A stretch of DNA of 64,000 nt. It comes from Pseudomonadota bacterium (GTDB taxonomy: Bacteria > Pseudomonadota > Alphaproteobacteria > Rhodobacterales > Rhodobacteraceae). The stretch lies in contig JBCBMY010000021.1 of assembly GCA_039822045.1 (NCBI GenBank), positions 35,298-99,297 of the forward strand, written 5' to 3'. Position 1 is the first letter of the stretch, and every line of letters begins with the position of its first letter. Positions 46,195-62,196 of the stretch are shown here, one piece after another. Under the pieces are notes generated by a model. That model searched no databases. It was not told where the DNA came from and saw only the letters and a program-made list of their open reading frames with translations. The translations under genes were made by a program, and so were the position numbers.

Positions 46195-46225
46195 CACCGC
46201 CCCTGCCCATCCGCCAACCGGAGAA

Positions 46226-47428: not shown

Positions 47429-47738
47429 ACCGGCTCGCGCCCTTTGGGGCGTGTCCCGAGCTAATCTCACGAAGGCTCGGTTTCGGGGCCCCGATGTCAG
47501 TCTGCCGCGGTCGCGGCCCCGGGGGTGACTCTATGGATCGACGGTTGCGATACCTGACATGACCTCGTGGTCGCTCTCGGCCTGTTGCAGGCAAGATGCG
47601 GGATGAGGCAGCAATCGGCCATCGTCGGACGCGCGCAGCAACAAAATCGATCCGCCTGCCCTTGCGCAAGAAGCAACTCGTCGAACGCTGCTGGGTAGAG
47701 CGGGCGGGCTGTAGCCGGCTTGCGGCACCATACAGCGG

Positions 47739-48398: not shown

Positions 48399-48415
48399 CC
48401 TGGCAACGGGCTGGG

Positions 48416-49339
48416 TCAAGGCCGGCTTGCCTCGATGAGCGACGTATAGAGACTGCGAATCCGGTGAAAGACCGGGCCCGCGACCCCCCCGCCTATGGTC
48501 CGGCCATCGATATCGAAGACGGGGGTTTGGGCGCCGAACGTTCCGGTCAGGAAGGCTTCGTCGGCTCCGTACGCGTCGACCAACGAGAAGTTCCGCTCGA
48601 ACACGGGAATGCCGTCGGCCCGGCAGACATCGATAACTTTCTGCCGCGTGATCCCATTCATGCAGTAATCGCCCGTCGACGTCCAAACCTCTCCCGTGCG
48701 GACGATGAAGAAGTTGCAGGCGTTTGTGGTGTTCACGAAGCCGAACGGATCGAGCATCAGCGCCTCGTCTGCCCCTGCCTGCACGGCGTGGTTCAGGGCG
48801 ATGATGCAGTTGAGCTTGGAATGGGAGTTGAGTTTGGCGTCCTGCGTGAGGGGCAGGCCGCGATGATGCGGTACGGTGCCCAAGCGGATGCCACGGGTCA
48901 GCACACTCTCGTCGGGCTTCGAATGCTCGGCGATGATAACGATGGTTGGACCGTAGATGCTGAGATGCGGGTGCTGGAACGGCTTTTTCTTGCGTCCGCG
49001 CGTCACCATCAGGCGGATATGGGCGTCGCTGACCATCCCGTTTGCCTCGAGCGTGGCGTGGATAGCGCGGGTGAGCTCTTCGCGCGACTGGCCGATGTCG
49101 AGCCCGATATAAAGCGCAGCCTCGTAAAGCCGGTCGAGATGATCGGCGAGAAATGGGATATGGCCGTCGTAGAGGCGCAAGCCCTCCCACACGCCGTCGC
49201 CCAGCATGAAGCCGGAATCGTAGACCGACACCTTAGCCTCGTCGCGGTGAACGAGATCGCCGTCGACATGGATCAGGATGTCGTCGTTGCGGTCGTCGGC
49301 AGCGGCGTCGTGGGTCGAGACGTGGGTGTCAGGGGCCAT
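48416..49339 (-). CDS. class IV aminotransferase (branched-chain / D-amino-acid aminotransferase family)
   Basis: Fold-type IV motifs GDGVWEGLR, E.TRAI. and NFFIV are present. 307 aa. Confidence 0.8.
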   Translation of the reverse strand: MAPDTHVSTHDAAADDRNDDILIHVDGDLVHRDEAKVSVYDSGFMLGDGVWEGLRLYDGHIPFLADHLDRLYEAALYIGLDIGQSREELTRAIHATLEANGMVSDAHIRLMVTRGRKKKPFQHPHLSIYGPTIVIIAEHSKPDESVLTRGIRLGTVPHHRGLPLTQDAKLNSHSKLNCIIALNHAVQAGADEALMLDPFGFVNTTNACNFFIVRTGEVWTSTGDYCMNGITRQKVIDVCRADGIPVFERNFSLVDAYGADEAFLTGTFGAQTPVFDIDGRTIGGGVAGPVFHRIRSLYTSLIEASRP

Positions 49340-49394
49340 GCGTGAGGTCCAGATTGGGCAGCGGCCGCTCGGTGCGGCCGCTGGCAGTGAATAG

Positions 49395-50237
49395 TCAGTC
49401 GGCAAAGAGTAGCTCGCGCTGGATGACTGGCGACGCCTTCGGATCGAGGCCAAACTCTGCGAGGAACTCCTCGTACCACAGCTGGGTGCGCCCCGTTTCG
49501 TAGTAATAGAAGATGGTGTGATCGACCCAGTCGCGGAAGGTCTTGTCGTCCTCGCGGCGTACGGCGATGGACGAGGGCGACGAGAAGGCTGGCGTTGGGA
49601 TCACGAGTTGCCCGCGACCGAGCTTCTGGCGGGCGGCCAGAAGGGGCGGATGGAAGAGGGACACCGCATCCACGCGGCCGGACTGGAAGGCCGCGATGGT
49701 GGCGCCGTTGTCCGGGAACCGCTGGATGTCGGCATTCGGAATGGTGCGCGTAAGGAATGCGTCCATCGAGGTTGCCTGAGGCACGCCGATCGTCACGTCG
49801 GGACTGTTCAGCGCCTCCCAGGTTGAGGCATCCACCCCATCATTGGCCAAAACGGCAAGTGAGATGTAGAGGAGCGGCTGCTTTGGATAGTCGACCACCA
49901 TGGCGCGCTTGGGCGTGGCGTCGAGGAACATCATATCGATCTTGTCGGCCTGGAGCGCTGCGATGGCCGTGGCCCAGGTGACTTCCACCATCTCGAGCTC
50001 AACTTCGAGTTCTTCAGCCATTGCCTTGCCGATGGACACAATGAGCCCGCTTTCCCATTCGCCTGAGGCGGGGTTCTTGGAGTACCACGGCGGGGCCTGG
50101 GTGACGCCCATTCGAAGTGTGCCGGTCTCCTGGATCTTCTCCCACGTGGATTGCGCGTGGGCGGCGGCAAGGCTGAGCGCGAACGCCGCGATGACGGCCA
50201 TCAGGCCCAGTGCCGTCTGTCTCGTCCATCCGATCAT
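49395..50237 (-). CDS. polar amino-acid ABC transporter substrate-binding protein (family 3)
   Basis: The signal peptide is MIGWTRQTALGLMAVIAAFALSLAAAHA. An SBP_bac_3 fold follows. The RBS is AAAGGACGG. Confidence 0.8.
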   Translation of the reverse strand: MIGWTRQTALGLMAVIAAFALSLAAAHAQSTWEKIQETGTLRMGVTQAPPWYSKNPASGEWESGLIVSIGKAMAEELEVELEMVEVTWATAIAALQADKIDMMFLDATPKRAMVVDYPKQPLLYISLAVLANDGVDASTWEALNSPDVTIGVPQATSMDAFLTRTIPNADIQRFPDNGATIAAFQSGRVDAVSLFHPPLLAARQKLGRGQLVIPTPAFSSPSSIAVRREDDKTFRDWVDHTIFYYYETGRTQLWYEEFLAEFGLDPKASPVIQRELLFAD

Positions 50238-50274
50238 GTTTCCGTCCTTTCCCTGTCTGTAGAGGTGCCGCCTT

Positions 50275-51048
50275 TCAATCGGGCAGCTTGAAGAGCGAAT
50301 GCCCGTCGAGGAATTCGCGCATCCGGTCGGTCTGTGGCGCCTTGAGAACGCTCTGTGGTTCGCCCTGCTCAAGAATTGCGCCCTGGTTCAGGAACAGAAC
50401 GCGGTTGGCGACGTGGTAGGCAAAGCCAAGCTCGTGGGTCACGCAGAGCATGGTCATACCCTCTTCGGCGAGCTGTCGCATTGTCTTGAGGACTTCGCCG
50501 ACAAGCTCGGGGTCGAGCGCTGATGTGACCTCGTCGAAGAGCATCACTTCGGGATCCATCGCCAGCGCGCGGGCAATTGCGACCCGCTGCTTCTGGCCGC
50601 CGGAGAGGCGCGCAGGATATTCCTCGGCCTTCTCAGCCAGACCCACGCGCTGCAACTGCGCCATCGCCTTGTCGCGGGCCTCGGCCTTGTCGCGTTTTAG
50701 CACGATCAGCTGCCCCTCCATCACGTTGTCGAGAACCGTCATGTGGGGGAAAAGATTGAAATGCTGGAACACCATGCCGATGCGCGCACGCAGGGCGCAG
50801 AGTTCGGCCTCGCGATAGCGCATCGTGCCATTGCGCTCGGTGCCGATCAGATCGCCCTTGAGATAGATCCTGCCATCGCTGGGTGTCTCCATGAAGTTGA
50901 CGCAGCGCAGCATGGTCGACTTGCCCGATCCGCTGGAGCCGAGGATCACCACCGCCTCGCCTTGTTCTACGCTCAGGTCGATGCCCTTGAGCACTTCGAG
51001 GGTGCCGAAGCTCTTGTGGAGGTTCTCGATACGAACGATTTCAGGCAT
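50275..51048 (-). CDS. polar amino-acid ABC transporter ATP-binding protein
   Basis: GSSGSGKST, LSGGQKQRVAIARA and MLFDEVTSALDPE are present. 257 aa. Confidence 0.9.
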   Translation of the reverse strand: MPEIVRIENLHKSFGTLEVLKGIDLSVEQGEAVVILGSSGSGKSTMLRCVNFMETPSDGRIYLKGDLIGTERNGTMRYREAELCALRARIGMVFQHFNLFPHMTVLDNVMEGQLIVLKRDKAEARDKAMAQLQRVGLAEKAEEYPARLSGGQKQRVAIARALAMDPEVMLFDEVTSALDPELVGEVLKTMRQLAEEGMTMLCVTHELGFAYHVANRVLFLNQGAILEQGEPQSVLKAPQTDRMREFLDGHSLFKLPD

Positions 51049-51713
51049 CAGTCGGCCTTTCTGAGCATGCGTTCGAGCACGTATGTGCCCTGCACGACCG
51101 GATAGAGTACGACAAAGAAGATGAGCGCGACGGCGGTGTAGCTCTCGATCGGATTGAAATTCAGATCGGCGATCAGCTTGGCCTGATTGAGCGTCTCGAC
51201 ATAGCCGACGACGGACGCGAGCGTCGACATCTTGAACACCTCGATGCCCCGGTTGGTGAGCGCGGGCAGGACACGTTTGACGGCGACGGGCAGGATGATC
51301 CGTCGCAGCGTTTGGGCGTAGGTCATCCCGATGGCCTTGCCGGCCTCCCATTGTCCGCGGTCGATCGACTGGATGCCCGCGCGGTAAATCTCGGCCGAAA
51401 ACGCCATCGTGTTCAAAGAGATGCCAAGGACAGCCGCAAGGAACGGATCGGTCTCGATCCCGGTCAGGATCGGGAACGCGTAGAAGAACCAGATGATCTG
51501 TACGAGGACAGGCGTGTTCCTGAAGACCTCGACGAAGGCGCGCGCCGGCCAGCTGATCCACGGAGACCGGGCGTAGCGCGCGATACCGACGATCAGCCCG
51601 CCTCCAAGGCCCAGCGCCACGGTGATGAGAAAGATCCAGACCGTGCCCTTGAGGCCCACCCAAAGGACCGGCCACGCGGCGATAATTGTGCCGAAGTCCC
51701 ACGTATGCCCCAT
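51048..51713 (-). CDS. polar amino-acid ABC transporter permease
   Basis: A His/Glu/Gln/Arg/opine-family permease. The EAA loop is EAGKAIGMTYAQTLRRIILP. Confidence 0.85.
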   Translation of the reverse strand: MGHTWDFGTIIAAWPVLWVGLKGTVWIFLITVALGLGGGLIVGIARYARSPWISWPARAFVEVFRNTPVLVQIIWFFYAFPILTGIETDPFLAAVLGISLNTMAFSAEIYRAGIQSIDRGQWEAGKAIGMTYAQTLRRIILPVAVKRVLPALTNRGIEVFKMSTLASVVGYVETLNQAKLIADLNFNPIESYTAVALIFFVVLYPVVQGTYVLERMLRKAD

Positions 51714-52387
51714 CAGCGCACCGTCCCCTCACCAGTGCGTGCCAGACGGTGCTCGACCCAGATGGACAGCTGGCTGAAAAAGAAGATCAGCACAAAGTAG
51801 ATCAGCGCGACGATGGTGTAGACCTCGAGCGGGCGAAATGTCTTTTGCGCCAGCTCGTTGGCCTGGAACATCAGGTCGGTATAGGCCACCGTCGACACAA
51901 GCGTCGTTGTCTTCAGAAGCTCAATCGAGCGCTCCATGAAGGCGGGGATCATGCGCTTCACGGCCTGGGGAAGGATGATGCGCTGAAGGGACTGGCTATA
52001 GCTCATGCCCATGGCCTTGGCGCCTTCCCACTGGCCCTTGTCGATCGATTGGATGCCACTGCGAAAGATCTCGGCAAAGAATGCCGAGGACTGGATCGAA
52101 AATGTGACGACCGCGGCGATGAGCGGGGTCATCCGCACGTCGACCAGGATCGGTAGCGCAAAGAAGAACCAGAAAAGCTGAACCAATGGCGGCGTGGTGC
52201 GGAAGAACTCAACAACAAAGCCGGCGACACCCGAAAGGGGGCGAAACGTCGAAAGCCGCGAGAGCGCAAGTACAAGGCCGAGGGGCACGCCAAACAGCAA
52301 GGCGAGGCCGGTCACCTTCAGCGTGTTCAGAAGCCCCAACAGCAGCAGGTCGAGATCATTCAGAACCGCAAGGAAATTCCATTCCAT
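51713..52387 (-). CDS. polar amino-acid ABC transporter permease
   Basis: The EAA loop is EGAKAMGMSYSQSLQRIILP. The ATG at 52387 was preferred to the TTG at 52396. Confidence 0.85.
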   Translation of the reverse strand: MEWNFLAVLNDLDLLLLGLLNTLKVTGLALLFGVPLGLVLALSRLSTFRPLSGVAGFVVEFFRTTPPLVQLFWFFFALPILVDVRMTPLIAAVVTFSIQSSAFFAEIFRSGIQSIDKGQWEGAKAMGMSYSQSLQRIILPQAVKRMIPAFMERSIELLKTTTLVSTVAYTDLMFQANELAQKTFRPLEVYTIVALIYFVLIFFFSQLSIWVEHRLARTGEGTVR

Positions 52388-52465
52388 GGCGCGCAACCCG
52401 TCTTGGCTTGTCAGAGCCTAGGTTCCAGATAGTATGATTGTCGACAATTTTTTCGAGGTGCGTGC

Positions 52466-53977
52466 ATGACCCGGCCTAACATCCTGTTTCTCCAGGTCGA
52501 TCAGCTCGCCGCTTCCTATTTGAGATGCTACGGCGACGCGGTGTGCCATGCACCGAACCTCGAGCGACTCGCAGAGCGCGGCACGGTGTTTGACACCGCC
52601 TATTGCAACTTTCCGCTTTGCGCCCCCTCGCGCGCCTCAATGGCGACGGGCCGGCTGTGTTCCGAGGTTGGAGCCTATGACAATGCAGCTGAACTGCCGG
52701 CATCGATCCCGACATATGCGGATTATCTACGCGCGGCGGGGTATCAGACAGCGCTGTCGGGCAAGATGCACTTCATCGGGCCGGACCAGTATCACGGCTT
52801 TGAGAAAAGGCTGACGCCGGATCTCTACCCGGCCGATTTCTCGTGGGTGCCGAATTGGGGCGACGAGGGCGCGCGAGACACCAATGATCCGCGTTCGGTG
52901 ACCGTGGCCGGCATATGTGAACGATCAGTGCAGATCGACTTCGACGAGCTGGTGACATACCGAGCCATTCAGCATCTCTACGACATCGCCCGCGCAACCG
53001 ATGATCGTCCGTTCTTTCTGCAGGTGTCCTATACACATCCGCATGAGCCCTACCTGTGTCGCAAGGAGTATTGGGAACTCTACGATGAGGCCGACATTCC
53101 CATGCCGACCGTGCCGCCCCTGCCCGAGGCGGAGCATGACGCGCACTCGGTGCGACTTCTCCGCGATTTCGGGATGCTGGATGTCAGATTTTCCGATGAC
53201 GACGTACGGCGCGCGCGGCACGCCTATTATGGATCGATCAGCTACCTCGATGCGATGATCGGCCGTGTGGTCGAGACGCTGGAGGCAATCGGCAAGGCGC
53301 AGGACACCGTTGTCGTCTTCACCTCAGACCACGGCGAAATGCTCGGAGAGCGCGGCATGTGGTTCAAGAAGCACTTCTTCGAGCCGTCGTTACGTGTGCC
53401 GTTGATCATTTCCGGAGGACCGTTTGGCTCCGGTCGGGTCGACACGCCTGCTTCGCTTGTCGATCTCCTGCCCACGTTCATGGGCCTTGCCGAGGGTGCG
53501 GGGTGGACGAGCCCGGTGGAACGCCTCGACGGGGTCGATCTGTCGACGATGCTCGAAGACGGCAATCCGGATCGCCCGATCTACGCCGAGTACCTTGCCG
53601 AGGCGACGACGGCGCCGATCTTCATGGTGCGGCAGGGTCGCTTCAAGCTGGTCCACTCGTCGGCCGATCCGCCGCTGCTGTTCGACGTTGCCGCCGATCC
53701 TCAGGAGCGGCGCAACCTCGCCGGTGATCCCGAATACGAAGCGGTGCTCGCTCGCCTGTCCGCGCTCATTCTGCAACGCTGGGACAGCGAGCGACTTTCG
53801 GAGGAGATCCGGGTCAGCCAACGCCGCCGTCGTTTGGTGCTGAAGGCCGCCAAGCAGGGCGTGCGCCCACGCTGGAACCACGGGGAAGAGCCGGGCTCCG
53901 ACGTCCTCTGGTATCGGGGCGAAACCAGCTACAACGATTGGGCCTTCCGCTACTTGCCGATTGCCGAAGTCGACTAA
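52466..53977 (+). CDS. betC: choline-sulfatase (type I sulfatase)
   Basis: MTRPNILFLQVDQL and the sulfatase signature CAPSRASM (Cys that becomes formylglycine) are present. 503 aa with no signal peptide, typical of BetC. Confidence 0.8.
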   Translation: MTRPNILFLQVDQLAASYLRCYGDAVCHAPNLERLAERGTVFDTAYCNFPLCAPSRASMATGRLCSEVGAYDNAAELPASIPTYADYLRAAGYQTALSGKMHFIGPDQYHGFEKRLTPDLYPADFSWVPNWGDEGARDTNDPRSVTVAGICERSVQIDFDELVTYRAIQHLYDIARATDDRPFFLQVSYTHPHEPYLCRKEYWELYDEADIPMPTVPPLPEAEHDAHSVRLLRDFGMLDVRFSDDDVRRARHAYYGSISYLDAMIGRVVETLEAIGKAQDTVVVFTSDHGEMLGERGMWFKKHFFEPSLRVPLIISGGPFGSGRVDTPASLVDLLPTFMGLAEGAGWTSPVERLDGVDLSTMLEDGNPDRPIYAEYLAEATTAPIFMVRQGRFKLVHSSADPPLLFDVAADPQERRNLAGDPEYEAVLARLSALILQRWDSERLSEEIRVSQRRRRLVLKAAKQGVRPRWNHGEEPGSDVLWYRGETSYNDWAFRYLPIAEVD

Positions 53978-54141
53978 GGGGTTGGGACGCGCCGCGGACG
54001 CCTACTCGATGCTCACGCGCAAGCAGAGCATGAGGGACACTGGAACACCCGCCCTCATCGGCGGTGACCACTCCCTCGACATGGGCCCGGTCGTGGCAGC
54101 GGATTGGCGGCCAAGCGCGTGCACCCGCGTGCGGGAGCGGT

Positions 54142-54263
54142 CGGCCCGGATTGCCCCGGACCCGCCCATCTCACTCCCGTAGCTTCATGAGATCGGTCAT
54201 CAGCCCCTCGGTCCTGTTATGGACCTTGAGCCGTTCGACCTTCCCCGCAATGGCCTCCAGAGC
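54142..54263. repeat. direct repeat copy A (~120 bp), a duplicate of the 3' end of the SPFH gene
   Basis: About 94% identical to 56138..56259. It includes a degenerate copy of the last 28 codons (...EAIAGKVERLKVHNRTEGLMTDLMKLRE). Confidence 0.75.
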
Positions 54264-54353
54264 GACAGCGGCACCAAAACCAAATCGATGGGACGGTACC
54301 ACCGGTCGGACGAGACACCACTGGACATCAATCAAAGCAAAGCGCGATAACAC
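54171..54353 (-). pseudogene. 3'-terminal remnant of an SPFH/band-7 gene (partial duplicate)
   Basis: The C-terminal 28 aa match the C-terminus of 56177..57316. Upstream sequence is unrelated. Confidence 0.5.
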
Positions 54354-54496
54354 GGCTCCTTCTCGGAGTCAGAACAACGCCAAGCCTACTGCGTTTGAGG
54401 TCCGCTCCCAAGAATCTCGGCCTTGCCGTTGACAGGCCTTTCGTCGCACGAGAACTCAAACTGATTCATGCTGCACGTTGTCTGTATGACTATAGC

Positions 54497-55132
54497 TCAT
54501 TGAACATCGGTAAGGCCAAAGCCGATGTAGCCAACGGCCGCAAGGGCGGACAATGCCGAAAATACCACTAAGCTGACGGCGGCGAGCCGTAGAAACGGGT
54601 TGTGAAATCTCCTGAGGTGTTTTGAGAGCGAATTCCCGCAAAGTGCGGCGCCGGCCATCGCAAGACCTGTCGCTCCCAAAACGACCGAGCCAAGAGCCAG
54701 AGCCGCATGATACATTGGGTTCTCACCGGTAATGAATTGGGGAACGATTGCGAGAAGAAAAACAAGGCTCAAGGGTTGACTCAGCGACAACGCCACCCCA
54801 GTCCAGAAAAAACCGGAGTAGATCTTTTGAACCTCTACTGTCGACTCCTCCGAGCGTGGCCATAGGATCCATGCCAGATATGCCAAGACAAATACCCCGG
54901 CCCATTGCAATATGCCAAAGGTTTGGTCGGACACAGATACTGCGCCGACGGTGATCGCAAAGGAGACCGAGAACAACAGAGCTGTCCCTAAGACTATCCC
55001 CAAGACAAAGCGTGTTGCGTTCAAGCCTCCAAATCTCGCTGCGACACCGGCCACGTAGATGATGCCCGGCCCGGGTACAGCTGCATTCAAAAATGTTACG
55101 ACGAAAAGCGACAGGAGGATACCGATTTCCAT
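54497..55132 (-). CDS. LysE/RhtB-family amino-acid exporter
   Basis: MEIGILLSLFVVTFLNAAVPGPG is a LysE-family N-terminus. Six TM helices. GC is lower, about 48%. Confidence 0.8.
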   Translation of the reverse strand: MEIGILLSLFVVTFLNAAVPGPGIIYVAGVAARFGGLNATRFVLGIVLGTALLFSVSFAITVGAVSVSDQTFGILQWAGVFVLAYLAWILWPRSEESTVEVQKIYSGFFWTGVALSLSQPLSLVFLLAIVPQFITGENPMYHAALALGSVVLGATGLAMAGAALCGNSLSKHLRRFHNPFLRLAAVSLVVFSALSALAAVGYIGFGLTDVQ

Positions 55133-55303
55133 AGTGTGTCCTAGCACTACCAGCTTTCACGACAACAATTGAGGAAGACGCGATAAGGTTGCAACTGCAG
55201 GCCCTAGGGAAAACCCTGGGTTGACTAGCGACCCCGAAACTGGACTACTCGAGACAGGATCTTTTGAGTCGGACGGTTGATCCTTTCGGAGAATTTGAAT
55301 TCG

Positions 55304-56044
55304 ATGACCTCCGTTTTCGACTTCTACGACAAAATTAACTCATGCGCGTCCGCCGATGAGGTCGACGCGGCCTGGCAAGACTGGTGCACGAAACTTGGTT
55401 TCCCCCGAACGGGCACCCAAACTACTCGTCTTCGCAACTACCAAATGAAAATGGCGCGGATTCGCACAAACTACCCCGATGCTGAAGTTGACCACTACCT
55501 TAAGAACCACTTTTTCCAATTTTCAAACAGCCTTAACCCGCTGCAAAAGCCAGCCCGCCTTGATGGTTTGCATTTGGATACGTTCTCCAAATACACGTCA
55601 GGGAAGCCTGACCGATACCACGATTTCTTGGATTTTGTACGAGAAATCAAAATACCAGCCGAAATGTGGGTTCGATTTCCCATATCTGAAGCACAGAGCA
55701 TCTCATTTTGCATATGGTCAGATGAAGAGGATCAGAGACTCTTTGAGTTGCGAACGCGGGAGTTACGACAGCTCGTAGTGCCTGCCGCGAGCGTTGCCTT
55801 AGAACGCATGAAGTCGGTTGGCGTTGAGTCTAGACCTAATGAAACGCCTTGTTTGACCAATCGGGAGAGTGATTGCATGTTGTTGCTCGCATCCGGTCTT
55901 CGTCAGCGAGAAATTGCGGACCGGGTGTCAATTGACATTAAGACGGTCGAAATGCACTTGCGGAATGCGCGCATCAAACTGAATGCCCGAACGACCCATC
56001 AGGCCATTGCTCAGGCCATTTTGAAAGGGCACATTGATCCGTGA
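55304..56044 (+). CDS. LuxR-family transcriptional regulator (C-terminal GerE HTH, with an N-terminal ligand-binding-like domain; possible LuxR solo)
   Basis: LTNRESDCMLLLASGLRQREIADRVSIDIKTVEMHLRNARIKL is a LuxR/GerE HTH. About 170 aa of N-terminal domain precede it. Low GC. No luxI is in the window. Confidence 0.7.
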   Translation: MTSVFDFYDKINSCASADEVDAAWQDWCTKLGFPRTGTQTTRLRNYQMKMARIRTNYPDAEVDHYLKNHFFQFSNSLNPLQKPARLDGLHLDTFSKYTSGKPDRYHDFLDFVREIKIPAEMWVRFPISEAQSISFCIWSDEEDQRLFELRTRELRQLVVPAASVALERMKSVGVESRPNETPCLTNRESDCMLLLASGLRQREIADRVSIDIKTVEMHLRNARIKLNARTTHQAIAQAILKGHIDP

Positions 56045-56137
56045 CGGCCAACGCGTGATTGCGCCGCGTCCGGTCACCGACACGGTACGGAGAGCACCGC
56101 ACACATGGACAAGGCCAAACGCGGGCGCCGTCTGAGA

Positions 56138-56259
56138 AAAGAAAAGACCGGCCCGAGTTCCCCGGGCCGGCCCATCTCACTCCCGTAGCTTCACGAGATC
56201 GGTCATCAGCCCCTCGGTCCCGTTATGGACCGTGAGCCGCTCGACCTTCCCCGCGATGG
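56138..56259. repeat. direct repeat copy B, the authentic 3' end of the SPFH gene plus 39 bp downstream
   Basis: Pairs with 54142..54263. Confidence 0.75.
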
Positions 56260-57316
56260 CCTCCAGAGCCTCAAGCTCCTTCAGCCGCAGCATCACGGGG
56301 TTCTCCGCCATCACCTTGGCGGTGTTCAGAAGCGACCGCGTTGCGTTCGTTTCCTCCCGCCGCCGGATGACGTTCGCCTCGGCCTCCTTCTCGGCCGTGA
56401 CGACCCGGTTCAGGATCTCCCGCATCTCCCCCGGAAGGATCACGTCCTTCAGGGCGATCGCCCGGACCTCAAGCCCGATCCGGGCCATCGCGGTCCGGAC
56501 CTCGGAGGCCGCCCCATCAGAGACCGCCACCTTGTCCGCCAGAAGCGCATCGAGCGTCAGCGCCCCAAGCGTCTTCCGGAAGGCCAGTTGCAGGGCCAGG
56601 TGCAGCGCTTCGGTGAAATCCTTCACCGCCCGCACTGCCTCCAGCGGGTCGACCACCCGGTACTCGGCCGTCAGGTTCACCCGCAGCGTCACCCGGTCGG
56701 CGGTCAGGAGCTCTTGCCCCGCCACCTCATGGGTTTGCCAGCGCGTGTCCACCAGCTTCACCAGGTGCTTCCGCCCCAGGTTCCAGAACCAATAGGTCCC
56801 AGCCTCCAGAACCCGATCGACCACCCCGTCGACCATCAGGATCCCGACCTTCCCTTCGGAGACCTCCGCCGAGGTCAGCGCCCCGGTCAGCTTCGCGCGC
56901 ATGAGCCGCTTCGCGAGCCATGCCTCGACCTGATGAGTCTCGGCGAGAGACACGGTGTCGACCGTCCACGCCCCGGCCTCGGTCCAGTAGACCGACCGGT
57001 GATCGGGCGTGACCACCTCATAGGCCCGCCCGTTGCGGTTGACGATCTTGACCTCGTCCGCCCCGGTCTCAACGACCGTCAGATGGGCCTCGACAAGGTC
57101 AGGCCGCGTCCGCAGGAGCGCCTCCTTGTAGGGCGACTGAAACTGCGACGTGCCGAGATTGTGGATCTGCCAGGTCACCTGGTCGCGCGGCAGCACATGC
57201 TCCCCGGCGCTCAGGATGGCGTGAAAGACCCCCTTGCGCAGCACAAGCGCCCGCTGGGTCTCTGTCAGGGTCAGCCGTTGCCGCCCCAGGATCCAATCTG
57301 TCAGTGTGTTTATCAT
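56177..57316 (-). CDS. SPFH/band-7 (stomatin/prohibitin-like) domain protein
   Basis: An SPFH core with a C-terminal coiled coil EKEAEANVIRRREETNATRSLLNTAKV. The start is MINTLTD at 57316 after GGAGAG. Confidence 0.8.
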   Translation of the reverse strand: MINTLTDWILGRQRLTLTETQRALVLRKGVFHAILSAGEHVLPRDQVTWQIHNLGTSQFQSPYKEALLRTRPDLVEAHLTVVETGADEVKIVNRNGRAYEVVTPDHRSVYWTEAGAWTVDTVSLAETHQVEAWLAKRLMRAKLTGALTSAEVSEGKVGILMVDGVVDRVLEAGTYWFWNLGRKHLVKLVDTRWQTHEVAGQELLTADRVTLRVNLTAEYRVVDPLEAVRAVKDFTEALHLALQLAFRKTLGALTLDALLADKVAVSDGAASEVRTAMARIGLEVRAIALKDVILPGEMREILNRVVTAEKEAEANVIRRREETNATRSLLNTAKVMAENPVMLRLKELEALEAIAGKVERLTVHNGTEGLMTDLVKLRE

Positions 57317-57810
57317 CTCGGCTCTCCATCTCGCTCTCGTCGTCTCGCTACACGCGATCCTCCTTTGGGGTTGGTGGGTTGCGGCCAGCATGGCCGACAG
57401 GTGTGACGCGCCAGGGCGGCGCAGGGTGTCCCGCGCCGAGGCGCGGAAACGGGGAAGCACGCCGGGACGGCGGGCATATCAGGGCGCCCCACAGATCGGG
57501 TGGCGCACGAAAGGGGCGGAGCCCGGAACCGCACCGCGCCATGCCCGGGGCGGAAGGCGGGGGAGCGGACAGGGGCGCCGCGCGGCGGGGCATGGGAGCG
57601 GTCGAAACCCCTCCGGCCCGGCCGCACGCGGCCCTGTCATCCTCCCAGCCTCCGGCCAGCGGCCAGAGCGGCAACGGCCGGCCGCCTTGAGCCCCGAAGA
57701 GCCAAAGCGTTGAACCGCCCCCGCAGGCGCGATCCCGGACCCGTAGATGTTCACACGCGTCGCAGGCGTGGTGGGGAGTCGAACCCCGGGGTTTCAAGCC
57801 CATCCCTAGG

Positions 57811-57884
57811 TTGCGTCGACGGGAGTCGAACCCGTGACAATTGGATTAAATGTCCAATGCTCTACCAAACTGAGCTACGTCGCA
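57811..57884 (-). tRNA. tRNA, Lys(UUU)-like, with atypical anticodon loop CAUUUAA (A at position 33) and one acceptor-stem mismatch
   Basis: The reverse complement folds as a canonical cloverleaf: D arm TAGCTCAGTTTGGTAGAGC, anticodon stem TTGGA/TCCAA, T arm ACGGGTTCGACTCCCGT. No CCA is encoded. Confidence 0.55.
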
Positions 57885-57886
57885 GT

Positions 57887-57961
57887 TGGAGGACGGAGAG
57901 GGGGTCGAACCCTCGGCCCGCGGGTTAAGAGCCCGCTGCTCTACCACTGAGCTACCCGTCC
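57887..57961 (-). tRNA. tRNA-Lys (anticodon CUU)
   Basis: GGACGGGTAGCTCAGTGGTAGAGCAGCGGGCTCTTAACCCGCGGGCCGAGGGTTCGACCCCCTCTCCGTCCTCCA. All four stems pair, U33 is present, the anticodon is CTT and CCA is encoded. Confidence 0.85.
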
Positions 57962-58320
57962 ACACCGTCCGATCCGTCCCGGCCCTGGCATACGGCAACG
58001 GCAGCGCCGCCCGCACCGGACGAGGTGCGACCTCGTTCCGCTAGGGTCCGTTCCGTCCTGAACGGGAGTTGCTGGATAGGCGCACCCGCCGAGTCGCGCT
58101 ACGTCGCAAGTTCCCCAGCGGAATGCCCGTGGCGGATGCGCAACATTGTTGCGCTAACGAGAAACTTTATTGCTCGCTCACCTAGGCCGAACCTGCTTGA
58201 GCATCAGGACAGGGCCGCGCAACTTGTGATTGGTTGCTCTCGGACAGTTGCGTTTGGGCGAAGGCTCGCTTCGCCGAGAGACTGGATTTGAATCGGCGCG
58301 TGCCAGTTGAGCGGGTTACC

Positions 58321-59244
58321 TCAGCCCTTCCGTGCGCCGTCCTCTTCGTCCGGCACGGTACGAACGGTCTCGAATGCGCGCCGTGCAAGATCACCGAAGA
58401 GCTTGGTCTTCTGACCCGCGCGCGCCTCGGGCGAGAAAACGAACCAGATCGGGGCGGACGGTTCCCACAAGATGCCAGCGGACACCTCCACCAGTCGCCC
58501 CTCTTCCAGTTCGGACATGACGGCCAGTCGCGACTTGATTGCGAGCCCCAGACCCTGAACCGCGCCCTCCGTCAGCATATCCGAACTCGAGACCAGAATG
58601 GTGCTGCGCGGCGTCACGTCCCGACGGCGCCCTTTGGCGTCCCGGACAGCCAAGCGCCGCTGCCAGGGAAGGCTGACCCAGGGCGCATGGATCAGATCGT
58701 CTGTCTGCGTAAATGGACCGTGAGTGTCCAGAAACGCCGGCGCACAGCACACGATTCGCTCGTTTTCGCTGAGCTTGCGGGCCACCAGAGCACTGTCCTC
58801 CAATTGCCCGACCCGGATGGCGCAATCCTGCCCCTCGGCCACGAGAGGCACATAGCGATCCACAGCGAGAAACTCGAATGTCAGTCGCGGATGCGCGCGA
58901 CGCAATTCAGGCAGGGCCGGCAAAATGAAGCGTGAGAGAATCCAGGGCGACATCGTGATACGCAGGTTTCCCGAAAGCTCGGCCGTCCCACTGCCGGCGT
59001 CACGCTCCGCCTGTGACAGGTCGGCCAGAATGGTCTGCACGCGCTCGAAATAGATCTGACCCTCCGGCGTGAGCTGAAGCGCCCGACTGTTGCGATGAAA
59101 GAGGGTCAGCTGCAACGCCGCTTCCAGCTTGGACAGCCGGTGGCTGGCGGTTGCCGGCGAGATCCCGATGCGTCGGGCACCTGCCGTCACGCCGCCCGTC
59201 TCGGCGATCACCACGAAGGTTCTCAGATCGTCGACGCCGTACAT
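58321..59244 (-). CDS. LysR-family transcriptional regulator
   Basis: DLRTFVVIAETGGVTAGARRIGISPATASHRLSKLE is a LysR HTH. It is divergent (91 bp) from the yellow-family gene. Confidence 0.85.
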   Translation of the reverse strand: MYGVDDLRTFVVIAETGGVTAGARRIGISPATASHRLSKLEAALQLTLFHRNSRALQLTPEGQIYFERVQTILADLSQAERDAGSGTAELSGNLRITMSPWILSRFILPALPELRRAHPRLTFEFLAVDRYVPLVAEGQDCAIRVGQLEDSALVARKLSENERIVCCAPAFLDTHGPFTQTDDLIHAPWVSLPWQRRLAVRDAKGRRRDVTPRSTILVSSSDMLTEGAVQGLGLAIKSRLAVMSELEEGRLVEVSAGILWEPSAPIWFVFSPEARAGQKTKLFGDLARRAFETVRTVPDEEDGARKG

Positions 59245-59335
59245 TCGATTTCTTCAAACGCTGGTTTCGAATTTCACCCTCTATTCCGGAGTAATTCATC
59301 CCTCTAGCAAGCCGTCAACGCGAGAGGAGGACGAA

Positions 59336-60415
59336 ATGAAGCGACATCTGGCTATCTTCACGGCTGCGCTGACCCTGGCGTGCGGCGCGAACGCCGAAGG
59401 CCTAGAGACTTACTTGGAGTTCCCCAAGGACACGCCGCCTGGGAACCTCGCCATCGCTCCAGATGGCCGCATGTTCATGTCGGTGCACGAGTTCTATGGG
59501 CCGGAACTGCGCGTCGTCGAAGTGATGCCCGATGGCAGCACACGCCCTTATCCGACCGAGGCGTGGGCCCGCAGCCCCTCGGAAGATGGCGATGGGTTGA
59601 ACGGCGTCCTCGGCCTCCGCGCTGACCGAGAGGGCATTTTGTGGATGCTCGACGGTCAAGGAGAAAACCAGACGGGCCGTGTGGTTGGGTGGAACACCCG
59701 AACCGAGGAGCTTCACGCGATCTACTATATTGGCGCCCCGGTCGCGCGTCCGTTCTCGTTCCTCAATGATCTGGCGGTCGATCGGGAGCACGGGGCAATC
59801 TACATCTCCGACACCGCGAACCACGTGGACTCTGCGATCATCGTGATCGACCTTGAGACCGGGCGCGCACGTCGCGTCCTCGAAGGCAGCCAATTCACCG
59901 CAGCCGAAGACACGCCGATGGTAATCGATGGGCGCGAGATCCTATTGGGCGGCAATCCCGCGAAAATCGGGATCAACCCGATCACGGTCGATCCGACCAA
60001 CACGTGGGTTTACTTCGCGCCGATGACGGGCAGTGCCATGTACCGGGTGCGCACGACGGACCTGCTGGATGAGAGCCTCGACAACAGCGCGCTGGAAGCG
60101 CGGGTCGAACGCTACGGTGACAAGCCGATCTCCGACGGCTCAACGGTGGACGCGGCAGGAAACGTTTATATCACCGCCATGACCGACAACGCCATCGGCG
60201 TGACCAGGCCCGACGGGACCTACGAGGTTCTGTTCCAGTCCGGCGACGACTTGCCGTGGCCCGACGGTTTCTCCATAGGCGTTGACGGCTATGTCTATGC
60301 CACAATCAACGAGCTGCATCGGTCGCCTGTGCTGAACGGGGGCGAAGACGCGTCACTCGGGACCTATCGGATCGTTCGTTTTCCGGCGTTTGGACCCGCG
60401 ATTTCCGGACGATAG
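59336..60415 (+). CDS. secreted major royal jelly/yellow-family (six-bladed beta-propeller) protein
   Basis: The signal peptide is MKRHLAIFTAALTLACGANA. MRJP/yellow-like blocks are present (GILWMLD, YISD, VDAAGNVY). The RBS is GAGAGGAGGA. Confidence 0.65.
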   Translation: MKRHLAIFTAALTLACGANAEGLETYLEFPKDTPPGNLAIAPDGRMFMSVHEFYGPELRVVEVMPDGSTRPYPTEAWARSPSEDGDGLNGVLGLRADREGILWMLDGQGENQTGRVVGWNTRTEELHAIYYIGAPVARPFSFLNDLAVDREHGAIYISDTANHVDSAIIVIDLETGRARRVLEGSQFTAAEDTPMVIDGREILLGGNPAKIGINPITVDPTNTWVYFAPMTGSAMYRVRTTDLLDESLDNSALEARVERYGDKPISDGSTVDAAGNVYITAMTDNAIGVTRPDGTYEVLFQSGDDLPWPDGFSIGVDGYVYATINELHRSPVLNGGEDASLGTYRIVRFPAFGPAISGR

Positions 60416-60507
60416 GTCAATGCCCTTGGATCGGGCCGATTCCGAGCGCGCCGGCCCGTTCGCACGATACCGACCAAGACAGACCCAAAGCCACCAAAGG
60501 ACATCAG

Positions 60508-61044
60508 ATGCTACTGCCCCGCCAGAAGACACCCGATCTCACGCTACCCACGCTCGACCATGGCGAATTCGACCTGTCCGCCGAGACGTCTGAGCGCGGC
60601 ACGGTGTTGTGCTTCTACCGGGGGCTGCATTGCCCGATCTGCGCGAGCTACCTCACGGAGTTCCAGAAGCGCGTCGCTGATTTCGCCGACCGCGGCGTCG
60701 GGACGATCGCGATCAGTTCCGACGGCGAAGGCCGGGCCCGCGACATGGCCAAGAAGATAGGCGCCGACACCTTGCGCTTTGCTTACGACCTGCCGCTGTC
60801 GATCGCGCGGGAATGGGGCCTCTACATCTCCACCTCGCGCGGCAAGACGTCTATCGGGATCGAGGAACCAGCGCTGTTTTCCGAGCCCGGCCTGTTCATG
60901 GTGACGCCGGAACAGAGCCTTTACTATGGCTCGGTCCAGACAATGCCATTCGTGCGCCCCCACTTCTCGGAACTCGTGGGCGCACTCGATTTCGCCATCG
61001 AAAAGAACTATCCCGCCCGCGGCGAATACACCGGGCCCGTTTAG
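60508..61044 (+). CDS. AhpC/TSA (redoxin) family protein
   Basis: The motif VLCFYRGLHCPICASYL is a thioredoxin-fold peroxiredoxin-like Cys motif. Confidence 0.7.
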   Translation: MLLPRQKTPDLTLPTLDHGEFDLSAETSERGTVLCFYRGLHCPICASYLTEFQKRVADFADRGVGTIAISSDGEGRARDMAKKIGADTLRFAYDLPLSIAREWGLYISTSRGKTSIGIEEPALFSEPGLFMVTPEQSLYYGSVQTMPFVRPHFSELVGALDFAIEKNYPARGEYTGPV

Positions 61045-61644
61045 AACAGCTTGCCAAGAGCGACCGTGACTTCTGCCTTCGCGATCCTCTGCGGCGCACG
61101 GCCCTGGGGCAGAGCCGCCGGTAGGGCGTTCCAGCTCCCCGCTGCGATGCCGGGGCTGGGCACGAGGGTGGAAGGCCCTCGCTGATCCGGAGTGATCTGC
61201 ATCCCTAGCCCGTTGACCTTTCTTCGGCGGGGAGCCTTTGGCCGCATTATGTCACTCGCTTTGTGGAAGACAAACTGAGAACAGCAGGGTGATGTGTTCT
61301 CGAGACGCGTGAACCGGCGCTTTGGACCGGCCCGATGCTCCGGGCGGAGGGGTCACACGTTCAGCATTTCGACGCCAAGGACAGCCCAGCGATCTCATTC
61401 GATCAGGTAGTCGGTCGATGAGGTCACTTTGGTGGAACCGATCGATGGATGTCGGCGGATGCTACAACGGCACACCGTCGTCAACCGACCAGGTAGGCAA
61501 ACGAACCCAAACGCGACCGGCCTTGCGCAATTGGTGCACGTGAAGTGTTGAAGGTTTGCATCGTGGGGAGAGCGATGTGCAAAACTCCTAGCTTGTGAGG
61601 CGCGTGTCTTCCATGGTGCGATGAGGCAGCAATAGGGTTCGACC

Positions 61645-62196
61645 ATGGCATTGACCAATTCCTCTAGGGGCTACGGCACTCCGACCAAGATTTTCCATTG
61701 GCTCATCGTGCTCCTATTCGCTTTGCAATATGTCGGTGGAAATATAATGACCAGCATCGACTTCAATTCAAGCTATGCGGGCATAAGCACGAACACCTAC
61801 TTCAACTGGCATAAATCTCTGGGGCTTGTAGCGCTCATTGTGGCGGTCCTCCGGCTCATAAACCGGCAATTAGGTGAATTGCCGCCCTGGGCATCAACGC
61901 TGTCAACCGGCGAGCGGAATTTTGTCCACCGGGTTGAGCAGGTCTTCTATTTGGCAATGTTCATAATGCCGATAACCGGCTGGCTCTATGTGATGTGGGG
62001 GAATTACGGAGTGAACCTGTTTGGCGTATGGGAAATGCCACGCCCGCTGCCACGAGACAACACGCTTCGCGATGTGGCGAAATGGGCCCATATTGCCGCC
62101 GGCTGGGTATTGCTGGCCGCCATTGTGGGGCACGTTAGCCTGGTCCTGTGGCATCAACTGATAAAAAAGGATCGATTACTAAAGCGCATGATGTGA
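61645..62196 (+). CDS. cytochrome b561 family protein
   Basis: FHWLIVLLF...H is the first His-ligand helix. Four TM helices. Lower GC, about 48%. Confidence 0.75.
   Translation: MALTNSSRGYGTPTKIFHWLIVLLFALQYVGGNIMTSIDFNSSYAGISTNTYFNWHKSLGLVALIVAVLRLINRQLGELPPWASTLSTGERNFVHRVEQVFYLAMFIMPITGWLYVMWGNYGVNLFGVWEMPRPLPRDNTLRDVAKWAHIAAGWVLLAAIVGHVSLVLWHQLIKKDRLLKRMM

What the first reader, a model, noticed from the sequence alone, without database searches (positions are those of the whole stretch)
54142..56259. Low-GC LysE plus LuxR insert flanked by ~110-bp direct repeats derived from the SPFH gene 3' end
Segments 54142-54263 and 56138-56259 are about 94% identical. Copy B is the true 3' end of the SPFH/band-7 gene. 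Copy A is a truncated duplicate that still encodes ...EAIAGKVERLKVHNRTEGLMTDLMKLRE. The ~1.9 kb between them is about 48% GC against about 65% in the flanks. It carries only a LysE-family exporter and a LuxR-type regulator with no cognate luxI. This is the expected footprint of a Campbell-type single-crossover integration of a circular element carrying about 110 bp of homology, or of a partially duplicated target. There is no integrase gene, so the element is either decayed or was mobilised in trans. The tRNA genes lie about 1.5 kb away.
Basis: seen in the sequence. Interest (0 to 1): 0.65.

Follow-up and report, generated by a model that had tools for sequence, protein, structure and literature searches.

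The report
Foreign two-gene insert with duplicated gene end
A marine Roseobacter-type bacterium picked up a small foreign exporter-plus-regulator gene pair next to its slipin gene, and a leftover second copy of that gene's tail marks the recombination; this is an ordinary, old scar of gene transfer, not an active mobile element.

Summary
Window 54142-54263 and 56149-56269 are 91.8% identical direct repeats. Each repeat holds the last 31 codons, the stop and the terminator hairpin of the slipin (SPFH) gene. Between them lie a LysE-family exporter and a divergently transcribed LuxR-family regulator. Their GC is 50-54% against 62-67% in the flanks.

No integrase, transposase or LuxI turned up in any ORF scanned in the 64 kb. 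The only close relative in public data (L084, about 97% identical) has the same insert, so it predates that split. No empty site exists in public data.

In L084 the pseudo-copy is longer: 145 coding nt, stop and an intact hairpin. It differs from the functional copy at 7 sites. All 7 are third codon positions and all carry the outgroup state. The two copies therefore come from two different functional alleles, not from an in-place duplication.

The window's pseudo-copy has since lost 74 nt. It also gained three amino-acid changes and a degraded hairpin. The regulator is frameshifted in the sister lineage.

Best reading: homology-guided capture of foreign DNA (Campbell-type or homology-facilitated illegitimate recombination), followed by decay. 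A remnant of an e14/icd-type integrase island is the main rival. Interest is low to moderate.

The parts
52466..53977 (+). Choline sulfatase gene (betC), the left flank. It converges on the insert and is shared with the sister genome L084.
   Evidence: Pfam Sulfatase. NCBIfam TIGR03417 choline-sulfatase, 612 bits against a cut-off of 433.
54142..54265 (-). Copy A, a pseudo 3' end of the slipin gene. It holds 31 codons, the stop codon (54171-54173) and a degraded terminator hairpin (54142-54170), with no T-run. A spurious 60-aa ORF (54171-54353) is called over it.
   Evidence: Repeat detection and alignments. Three amino-acid changes (T>K, G>R, V>M) fall at residues invariant in 10 orthologues. 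The hairpin is weakened: -24 kcal/mol and z -1.0, against -32.5 and z -5.8 for copy B.
54263..54264 (.). Deletion scar. Relative to sister genome L084, 74 nt are missing here: 52 nt more of the slipin 3' end plus 22 nt of spacer.
   Evidence: blastn breakpoints between L084 and the window. Alignment.
54266..54496 (-). Spacer downstream of LysE (GC 54%), with a weak terminator-like hairpin at 54286-54304.
   Evidence: No similarity to any fetched locus.
54497..55132 (-). LysE/RhtB-superfamily exporter of 211 aa, with an ATG start and an AGGA ribosome-binding site.
   Evidence: Pfam PF01810, E 1.6e-11. Only sub-threshold NCBIfam hits to RhtB, LeuE and related models. Near-orphan: the next relative is 67% identical, then 34% or less. 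GC3 is 0.59. There are 7 differences in 636 nt to L084, 5 of them synonymous.
55133..55303 (.). Divergent intergenic (promoter) region between LysE and the LuxR-family gene.
   Evidence: Read directly from the sequence. No sigma-70 consensus match and no lux-box-like palindrome.
55304..56044 (+). LuxR-family regulator of 246 aa. It has a GerE helix-turn-helix domain at the C terminus and a divergent autoinducer-binding-type N-terminal domain.
   Evidence: Pfam GerE. A 246-aa gene is called in the Logan and NCBI records. A family profile matches RhlR, LasR and TraR over their full length, E 1e-33 to 1e-36. 14 of 20 family members hit PF03472. The W57 and D70 equivalents are E and S. GC3 is 0.56. 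The gene is frameshifted in L083 and L084.
56045..56134 (.). GC-rich spacer (64%) between the LuxR stop codon and the slipin terminator. Its origin, host or donor, is unresolved.
   Evidence: No similarity to the regions downstream of slipin in orthologues.
56135..56173 (-). Intrinsic terminator of the slipin gene: a 13-bp GC-rich hairpin (56145-56173) followed by a T-run (56135-56144).
   Evidence: Terminator scan. Fold of -32.5 kcal/mol, z -5.75. The hairpin is conserved in orthologues.
56149..56269 (-). Copy B, the repeated part of the functional slipin gene: its last 31 codons, stop codon and hairpin.
   Evidence: It keeps all residues conserved in orthologues. It is identical in the window and L084 over the last 153 nt.
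56177..57316 (-). Slipin / SPFH (band-7) gene of 379 aa.
   Evidence: Pfam PF01145. Orthologues at 58-84% aa identity across Rhodobacterales and Mesorhizobium. The 98% identical homologue P0015 is called at 379 aa.
57809..57961 (-). Two tandem tRNA-Lys genes (anticodons TTT and CTT) upstream of slipin. Together with slipin they are the only part of the neighbourhood that is syntenic with other genera.
   Evidence: ARAGORN. Rfam. Synteny analysis.

Best explanation
This is a fossil scar of a homology-guided acquisition of foreign DNA. It is not an autonomous mobile element.

Proposed mechanism (inferred): a piece of DNA of about 2 kb or more entered an ancestor of this Paracoccaceae lineage. 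It carried a low-GC LysE-exporter / LuxR-regulator module joined to a slipin 3' end plus terminator hairpin from a different, moderately diverged allele. It recombined with the resident slipin gene through that homology. Two routes fit:
- a single crossover with a circularised fragment (Campbell type);
- one homologous end plus one illegitimate end (homology-facilitated illegitimate recombination, HFIR).

Either route leaves an intact slipin gene, the cassette, and a redundant second 3' end of at least 175 bp.

Shown:
- the repeat and the foreign composition of the insert;
- the absence of recombinase genes;
- the different allelic origin of the two copies;
- presence of the insert in two populations about 3% apart;
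- ongoing decay: a 74-nt deletion, three non-synonymous G/C>A changes and hairpin loss in the window's copy A, and a frameshifted regulator in the sister lineage.

Inferred:
- the recombination route;
- which copy is the resident one;
- a short B-to-A gene-conversion tract in the window's copy A;
- the function of the module, namely a ligand-responsive LuxR-type regulator controlling the divergent small-molecule exporter.
For: - Repeat: 122 nt at 91.8%. It covers the last 31 codons, the stop and the terminator hairpin.
- Foreign composition: GC 0.50-0.54 and GC3 0.56-0.59, against 0.62-0.67 and 0.75-0.86 in neighbouring genes. The 55-56 kb bin is the lowest of the whole window.
- Near-orphan genes: in 5.8 billion proteins, LuxR and LysE have only themselves, the sister-lineage copy, and one pair at 64-67% identity. 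That pair has the same divergent arrangement.
- No recombinase: none of about 55 scanned window ORFs gave an integrase, transposase or phage hit. The insert has no terminal inverted repeats.
- None of 80 orthologous slipin loci has a duplicated 3' end, so this is not a recurrent attachment site.
- Sister genome L084 has the same insert with a 175-nt copy A. All 7 coding differences to copy B are at third codon positions (6 synonymous, 1 E/D). P is about 5e-4 if substitutions were random.
- All 7 copy-A states equal the outgroup majority. All divergence therefore lies on the selected copy and none on the 'pseudogene'. This contradicts in-place duplication followed by neutral decay.
- Decay is ongoing.
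- Published analogues of displaced 3' ends after homology-anchored insertion: PMC5361080 and PMC3240628.
Against: - No empty site and no donor locus was found. The insertion is therefore inferred from composition, from absence in relatives at 84% or lower identity, and from the repeat alone.
- Relatives lacking the insert also lack betC downstream. The region downstream of slipin is a general synteny break.
- An integrase-mediated event followed by loss of the integrase would give the same end state.
- RecA-type crossovers within about 150-175 bp are inefficient, although the original homology may have been longer.
- The direction (which copy is resident) could not be resolved.
- The mosaic pattern of the window's copy A needs an extra event (gene conversion). 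In a metagenome assembly it could also partly reflect strain mixing.
Confidence: 0.55

Rival explanations
1. Remnant of a site-specific integrative element of the e14/icd type, or a decayed island / cis-mobilizable element. In this reading, an element with an integrase inserted into the 3' end of slipin and brought a replacement 3' end. The displaced host 3' end stayed at the far end. Later deletions removed the integrase and most cargo, leaving LysE and LuxR.
For: - The anatomy matches e14 in the E. coli icd gene. There, a 163-bp pseudo-3' end forms a duplicated region, the functional gene end is supplied by the element, and there is a conservative Asp/Glu change (PMC6379469).
- Here the duplicate is 175 nt, its differences are synonymous, and there is an E/D change at the last residue.
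- Deletions are demonstrably occurring at the inner edge of copy A.
Against: - No integrase, excisionase or any phage or conjugation gene, nor a recognisable fragment, in the insert or in the 64 kb.
- No similarity of the insert to phages or plasmids.
- None of 80 orthologous slipin loci shows a duplicated 3' end or an island at this position.
- The element would have had to shrink to 1.9 kb while keeping two intact genes.
Confidence: 0.25
2. Purely internal rearrangement. In this reading, a slipin 3' fragment was duplicated in place (replication slippage or template switching at the terminator hairpin), or a second slipin paralogue was deleted down to a stump. The cassette arrived independently. 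The synonymous differences arose because the functional gene was later replaced by allelic recombination.
For: - The outer edge of copy A coincides exactly with the 3' base of the hairpin. Palindromes are known hotspots for template switching (my own knowledge).
- Copy A is being eroded from its inner side, so it may once have been much longer.
Against: - It needs at least three independent events at one spot.
- Copy A in L084 shows zero private changes while copy B shows seven. This requires an additional allelic replacement of the functional gene.
- The foreign cassette lying exactly between the two copies would be a coincidence.
Confidence: 0.12
3. Assembly artefact. In this reading, the low-GC cassette belongs to another organism and was joined into this contig through the repeated ~120-nt sequence.
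For: The source is a metagenome-assembled genome. Contigs of the sister population break at the repeat edge: L083 ends at window position 56270.
Against: - Three assemblies from two samples give the same joins.
- Between the two populations the cassette differs by 1.1-2.9%, in step with the flanks at 2.6-3.4%. It has therefore co-evolved with this genome.
- Both junctions lie in unique sequence outside the repeat.
Confidence: 0.03

Closest known systems
e14 prophage integrated in the E. coli icd gene (pseudo-icd' 3' duplicate)
   Same: - Both have a direct duplication of the last ~160-175 nt of a protein-coding gene flanking inserted DNA.
- The functional gene stays intact.
- The copies differ mainly by silent changes plus a conservative Asp/Glu change (PMC6379469).
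   Different: - e14 is a ~15-kb prophage with its own integrase and can excise.
- Here the insert is 1.9 kb with no recombinase and no phage genes.
- The duplicate extends through the terminator hairpin.
- No other genome shows this site in use.
Homology-facilitated illegitimate recombination (HFIR) and displaced 'orphan' 3' ends in T6SS effector and Rhs loci
   Same: - Foreign DNA is anchored by homology to a conserved upstream gene and joined illegitimately at the other end.
- The old 3' end is shifted downstream as a remnant (PMC5361080; PMC3240628).
- No recombinase is needed.
   Different: - In those loci the displaced piece is a variable toxin tail with its immunity gene, and the process is recurrent.
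- Here a housekeeping-type slipin tail is duplicated once.
- The junction microhomology cannot be read, because the donor is unknown and the window's junction has been deleted.
Campbell-type single-crossover integration of a circular DNA (as with suicide plasmids), followed by stabilising deletion
   Same: - Direct repeats equal to the homology segment bracket the inserted DNA.
- The repeats derive from two alleles.
- One repeat has been shortened by deletion, which would lower the rate of loss by recombination between the repeats.
   Different: - No replicon or circular form is known.
- The surviving homology is short.
- A natural occurrence of this kind has to be inferred.
CIME (cis-mobilizable elements: att-flanked remnants of integrative elements lacking an integrase)
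   Same: Small cargo bounded by direct repeats derived from the target gene's 3' end, with no integrase.
   Different: - No cognate integrative element or integrase is known for this site.
- The repeats are diverged and eroding.
- The insert is fixed in both sampled populations.
LuxR 'solo' regulators with altered ligand pockets, paired with LysE/RhtB exporters (LysG-LysE-like regulator-exporter pairs)
   Same: - The regulator has a full-length quorum-sensing LuxR architecture.
- No LuxI is present in the window.
- It is transcribed divergently from a LysE-family exporter, and the pairing is conserved in the only distant relative.
   Different: - Two of the conserved acyl-homoserine-lactone contact residues are replaced: the LasR W60 / TraR W57 equivalent is E, and the D73 / D70 equivalent is S.
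- Pfam Autoind_bind is not detected in this protein itself.
- The classical LysE regulator LysG is LysR-type, not LuxR-type (my own knowledge).

Membership tests
Integrase-mediated genomic island / prophage (e14-icd type) | A tyrosine or serine recombinase gene inside the element, usually next to one att site | tested here: not met
   Pfam scans of the insert genes and about 55 ORFs of the 64-kb window gave no integrase, recombinase or excisionase hit.
Integrase-mediated genomic island / prophage (e14-icd type) | Direct repeats (attL/attR) made of the 3' end of the target gene, with the target gene kept intact | tested here: met
   The slipin ORF is intact, and its C terminus matches orthologues.
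Integrase-mediated genomic island / prophage (e14-icd type) | The same site is used recurrently, or an empty attB exists in related genomes | tested here: not met
   None of 80 orthologous loci has a duplicated 3' end. No slipin-betC empty site was found in GTDB genomes, the 5.8-billion-protein collection or JGI metagenomes.
Integrase-mediated genomic island / prophage (e14-icd type) | Excision to a circular form | not testable with these tools
   This needs reads or PCR across a repeat-repeat junction.
Homology-dependent capture (Campbell single crossover / HFIR) | The repeats are a stretch of the resident gene, and the two copies stem from different alleles (donor and recipient) | tested here: met
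   In L084, 7 of 7 differences are at third codon positions, and all copy-A states equal the outgroup state.
Homology-dependent capture (Campbell single crossover / HFIR) | The inserted DNA is unrelated to the recipient and carries no recombination machinery of its own | tested here: met
   Composition. Near-orphan genes. No recombinase.
Homology-dependent capture (Campbell single crossover / HFIR) | An illegitimate junction with microhomology (HFIR), or a circle-closure junction (Campbell) | tested here: inconclusive
   The inner junction is seen only in L084 (...GGATCTCTT|CGCCAAGGTG...). It is deleted in the window, and the donor sequence is unknown.
Transposon / insertion sequence | A transposase, terminal inverted repeats and a short (2-15 bp) target-site duplication | tested here: not met
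   No transposase. No terminal inverted repeats. The duplication is at least 122-175 bp.
Quorum-sensing LuxR family (the regulator at 55304-56044) | C-terminal GerE/LuxR helix-turn-helix domain | tested here: met
   PF00196, E 6e-12, residues 184-236.
Quorum-sensing LuxR family (the regulator at 55304-56044) | N-terminal autoinducer-binding domain | tested here: inconclusive
   PF03472 is not detected in the protein itself. However, 14 of 20 full-length homologues have it, and the family profile aligns end to end with RhlR, LasR, TraR, QscR and CviR.
Quorum-sensing LuxR family (the regulator at 55304-56044) | Conserved acyl-homoserine-lactone contact residues (TraR W57, Y61, D70 = LasR W60, Y64, D73) | tested here: not met
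   The alignment gives E at the W position, Y retained, and S at the D position. The residue roles come from my own knowledge of the family.
Quorum-sensing LuxR family (the regulator at 55304-56044) | A cognate LuxI-type synthase nearby | tested here: not met
   No Autoind_synth hit in any scanned ORF of the window. The rest of the genome was not seen.
LysE/RhtB exporter superfamily (54497-55132) | Match to the LysE-type translocator model over the whole ~200-aa protein | tested here: met
   PF01810 at 44.5 bits against a cut-off of 25.6, residues 22-198. No NCBIfam equivalog reached its cut-off, so the substrate is unknown.

The most novel reading that the evidence does not exclude
The LysE-LuxR pair could be a minimal, integrase-less integrative cassette (CIME-like). 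In this reading it targets the slipin 3' end or terminator hairpin and is moved in trans by a recombinase, or delivered by a gene-transfer agent, encoded elsewhere in Roseobacter genomes. It would be a new kind of tiny mobile 'sense-and-export' module. The evidence does not exclude this. Against it: the site is used in only one lineage, the repeats are eroding, and the regulator is already broken in the sister population.
Probability: 0.06. Interest if true: 0.6.

Novelty: new member of a known kind. Interest (0 to 1): 0.3.

Why it matters
This is a clean natural example of how a foreign gene cassette can be fixed next to a core gene without any dedicated recombinase. Both the incoming and the resident alleles of the anchoring gene are still readable, and two sister populations show successive stages of decay: shortening of the repeat, a conversion-like mosaic, and loss of the regulator. 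That makes it useful as an illustration of homology-anchored gene gain in marine Rhodobacterales, and for annotation, since the 60-aa ORF over copy A is a pseudogene fragment. It does not reveal a new mechanism or a new type of element. The cargo is a very rare LuxR-solo / LysE-exporter pair with an altered ligand pocket. It is a modest lead for work on non-acyl-homoserine-lactone signalling or export.

Tried and rejected
- **Empty site.** I searched one genome per species (GTDB) with the slipin protein. I searched the 5.8-billion-protein collection and looked up contigs for the closest slipins. I scanned JGI metagenomes with an exact copy-A-type hairpin pattern, which gave 0 hits, and with betC. 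No empty site and no donor locus turned up. Relatives at 84% or lower identity share only tRNA-Lys plus slipin.
- **Recurrent att site.** I compared each of the 80 slipin tails with its own locus. Only terminator self-complementarity and chance matches appeared.
- **Which copy is resident.** I looked at the density of lineage-specific changes along the gene, at rate calibration of the 3' end, and at T-runs after the hairpin in orthologues. None was decisive. I dropped the argument 'copy A lacks a T-run, so its flank is not native' once several orthologues proved to have weak T-runs too.
- **Extension of the repeat beyond the hairpin.** A GGCCAA.CGCG motif about 19 nt further on is probably chance and is weaker in L084.
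- **Origin of the cassette.** No phage match and only 30% or lower identity LuxR relatives on plasmids. DNA of the single distant relative (ERR4592245) could not be fetched.
- **Spacers.** Comparison with all fetched loci gave nothing.
- **Regulatory sites.** No lux-box-like palindrome or sigma-70 promoter in the divergent intergenic region.
- **cDNA idea.** I considered a reverse-transcribed mRNA 3' end as the source of copy A, because its edge sits at the hairpin base. I rejected it because copy A is a different allele from the resident gene.
Full report
**Observation.**
- The window holds a genuine direct repeat. The repeat finder reports 54146-54263 and 56152-56269 at 92%. blastn extends this to 54142-54263 against 56149-56269, 122 columns with 9 mismatches and one 1-nt gap, 91.8%.
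Read literally, the two intervals are only 25% identical.
- A match of this quality has a chance expectation of about 1e-39 in 64 kb. The only other long repeat in the window is a pair of flagellin genes.
- Copy B is the end of a 379-aa slipin/SPFH gene on the minus strand (56177-57316; Pfam Band_7).
- The repeat spans that gene's last 31 codons, the stop codon and the 13-bp GC-rich terminator hairpin. It does not include the T-run that follows.

**What lies between the repeats.**
- Reading in the sense of slipin, the order is: terminator; a 100-nt GC-rich spacer; a LuxR-family gene on the opposite strand (55304-56044, 246 aa); a 171-nt divergent intergenic region; a LysE-family exporter (55132-54497, 211 aa); a 231-nt spacer; copy A. 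After 165 nt comes the convergent choline sulfatase gene betC.
- The insert has 52% GC (LuxR 50%, LysE 54%) and GC3 of 0.56-0.59. Neighbouring genes have 62-67% GC and GC3 of 0.75-0.86. The 55-56 kb bin is the lowest of the whole window.
- Pfam scans of the insert genes and about 55 further ORFs of the window found no integrase, transposase, phage gene or LuxI-type synthase.
- The insert has no terminal inverted repeats.
- Two tRNA-Lys genes lie upstream of slipin at 57809-57961.

**Is the structure real?**
- A Logan assembly of run SRR22824292 gives a 4,959-nt contig that is 100% identical to window 52105-57063. It spans both repeats.
- Two assemblies of a related population carry the same joins at about 97% identity. 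These are L083 (run SRR22824295) and L084 (NCBI GCA_038520855.1, contig JBCBKW010000024.1).
- Between the two populations LysE differs at 7 of 636 nt and the LuxR region at 30 of 1045. This compares with 30 of 1140 in slipin and 52 of 1512 in betC.
- The cassette has therefore diverged together with its flanks, which argues strongly against a chimeric assembly.

**Comparison with other genomes.**
- The slipin protein finds orthologues in 80 species-level genomes. The closest are at 82-84% aa identity: Paracoccaceae MAGs, plus further ENA and NCBI contigs.
- In all of them only the block tRNA-Lys plus slipin is syntenic with the window. The DNA downstream of slipin is different everywhere. Neither betC nor the cassette is present.
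- None of the 80 loci contains a second copy of its own slipin 3' end.
- betC relatives in JGI metagenomes (76% or lower, one fragment at 80%) have other neighbours downstream.
- An exact search for the copy-A-type stop-plus-hairpin found nothing.
- No empty site and no donor locus is available.

**The decisive new evidence comes from L084.**
- Its copy A is longer. L084 has 74 extra nucleotides exactly between window positions 54263 and 54264. Of these, 52 continue the homology to slipin.
- Copy A in L084 thus comprises 145 coding nucleotides, the stop and a perfectly paired hairpin (-32.8 kcal/mol). The window has suffered a deletion, so the inner edge of the window's copy A is a deletion scar and not the original junction.
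- In L084, copy A differs from copy B at seven coding sites. All seven are third codon positions: six synonymous, plus a Glu/Asp difference at the last residue. The probability under random placement is about (1/3)^7 = 5e-4.
- At all seven sites copy A carries the state found in the outgroups. L002, L009, L012 and L085 are identical to it at all seven. Every change since the common ancestor of the two copies therefore lies on the copy that is under selection, and none on the supposedly neutral fragment.
- That is the opposite of what an in-place duplication followed by decay predicts. The two copies were shaped as parts of two different functional slipin alleles. One of them must have arrived with incoming DNA, or else the functional gene was later replaced.

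**Decay since then.**
- The window's copy A has three amino-acid changes (T>K, G>R, V>M) at positions invariant in ten orthologues. All are G/C>A changes. It also has a silent C>T change.
- Three substitutions in its hairpin reduce it to a marginal structure (-24.1 kcal/mol, z -1.0).
- At five of the sites that separate the alleles in L084 (-58 to -4), the window's copy A carries the copy-B state. At -64 and in the hairpin loop it keeps the copy-A state. This is the pattern of a short gene-conversion tract from B to A. That reading is an inference, and strain mixing in a metagenome assembly cannot be excluded.
- In the sister population the LuxR gene has a 1-nt deletion (at window 55633) that truncates it after residue 110. 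LysE remains intact and well conserved.

**Mechanism.**
- The best-supported account is homology-guided capture of foreign DNA. A fragment carrying the low-GC module joined to a slipin 3' segment and hairpin recombined with the resident slipin gene.
- One route is a single crossover after circularisation (Campbell). This duplicates the homology on both sides of the cargo.
- The other route is one homologous end plus one illegitimate end (HFIR). This shifts the resident 3' end downstream. Such displaced 3' ends are described for T6SS effector and Rhs loci (PMC5361080; PMC3240628).
- Later deletion shortened the redundant copy. By inference, this also stabilises the insertion against loss by recombination between the repeats.
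- Delivery by transformation or a gene-transfer agent is plausible for Rhodobacterales but was not tested (my own knowledge).
- I could not determine which copy is the resident one. The density of lineage-specific changes is similar in copy B and the rest of the gene. After correcting for the slower 3' end, both copies fall within the expected range. T-runs after the hairpin are weak in several orthologues too, so the missing T-run after copy A is not informative.

**Rivals.**
- *Integrase island remnant.* An integrase-mediated island that later lost its integrase gives the same end state, and it has a close textbook parallel. Prophage e14 in E. coli icd leaves a 163-bp pseudo-3' end, supplies the functional gene end and causes an Asp/Glu replacement (PMC6379469). 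Against it: there is no trace of recombinase or phage genes, no relatives among phages or plasmids, and no second use of this site in 80 genomes.
- *Purely internal rearrangement.* This needs several coincident events plus an allelic replacement.
- *Assembly artefact.* This is very unlikely, for the reasons given above.

**The cargo.**
- LuxR and LysE are near-orphans. Among 5.8 billion clustered proteins the regulator has only itself, the sister copy, one 64% relative and a weak hit. The exporter has a 67% relative on that same contig and nothing above 34%.
- In that distant contig (ERR4592245) the two genes are again adjacent and divergent, followed by a second GerE-type gene. The pair therefore behaves as a functional module.
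- An exhaustive HMMER search finds about 245-aa homologues at 25-50% identity. Of 20 aligned members, 14 carry the Pfam autoinducer-binding domain. The family profile aligns over its full length with RhlR, LasR, TraR, QscR and CviR, with E values from 1e-32 to 1e-36.
- The window protein itself does not reach the Pfam threshold for that domain. It has Glu and Ser at the positions of LasR W60 and D73, and Tyr64 is kept. By inference it senses something other than a canonical acyl-homoserine lactone and controls the divergent exporter.
- The exporter matches no NCBIfam equivalog, so its substrate is unknown.

**Verdict.** It is an old, decaying recombination scar around a rare two-gene cargo. 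It belongs to a known kind of event, with no sign of current mobility. Interest is low to moderate.

**Noticed in passing.**
- The very GC-rich stretch between tRNA-Lys and slipin contains a ~230-nt element (window about 57748-57505, minus strand). It is conserved at full length, at the same position, in 40 of 80 Rhodobacterales loci.
- It has a consensus structure of 40 pairs. 93.8% of cells are paired, against 45-55% when partners are slid. There are 155 double-sided changes against 29-35, and 0 of 500 shuffles reach the observed values.
- No Rfam family matches it.
- It looks like an unannotated structured RNA and may deserve its own follow-up.

Noticed in passing
window 57505-57748 (minus strand), between tRNA-Lys(TTT) and the slipin start: A conserved, very GC-rich ~230-nt element with strong covariation support for a three-way structure (a 15-bp closing helix plus two arms). 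It is found at full length, at the same position, in 40 of 80 Rhodobacterales loci (Ruegeria, Roseovarius, Tateyamaria, Litoreibacter, Shimia and others). No Rfam 15 family matches it. It is a candidate unannotated small RNA, either co-transcribed with tRNA-Lys or acting as a leader of the slipin gene.
   Followed up: partly
window 57330-57500 (minus strand): Between the structured element and the slipin start codon, the related loci share two further small hairpins. One resembles a terminator (GCGCC...GGCGC). This hints at attenuation-type control of slipin.
   Followed up: no
window 3756-5129 and 6084-7454 (minus strand): Two tandem flagellin genes, 82.8% identical over 1341 nt. Besides the finding, this is the only other long repeat in the window.
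   Followed up: no
window 61000-63500: A second patch of lower GC (0.51-0.58) containing a cytochrome b561 gene (61645-62196) and several ORFs with no Pfam match. It may be another acquired segment.
   Followed up: no
L083 and L084 (sister population), corresponding to window 55633: A 1-nt deletion in a T-run frameshifts the LuxR-family gene after residue 110 in the sister population. LysE stays intact and is more conserved than the flanks (1.1% against 2.6-3.4%).
   Followed up: yes
window 54171-54353 (minus strand): Public gene calls (the Logan record) annotate a 60-aa protein here. It is the pseudo 3' end of slipin read through into spacer DNA, not a gene.
   Followed up: yes
loci L001-L085 compared with window 46000-64000: Across genera, only the block tRNA-Lys + RNA element + slipin is syntenic. 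DNA on both sides differs in every genome examined, so this block sits in a region of high gene turnover.
   Followed up: partly
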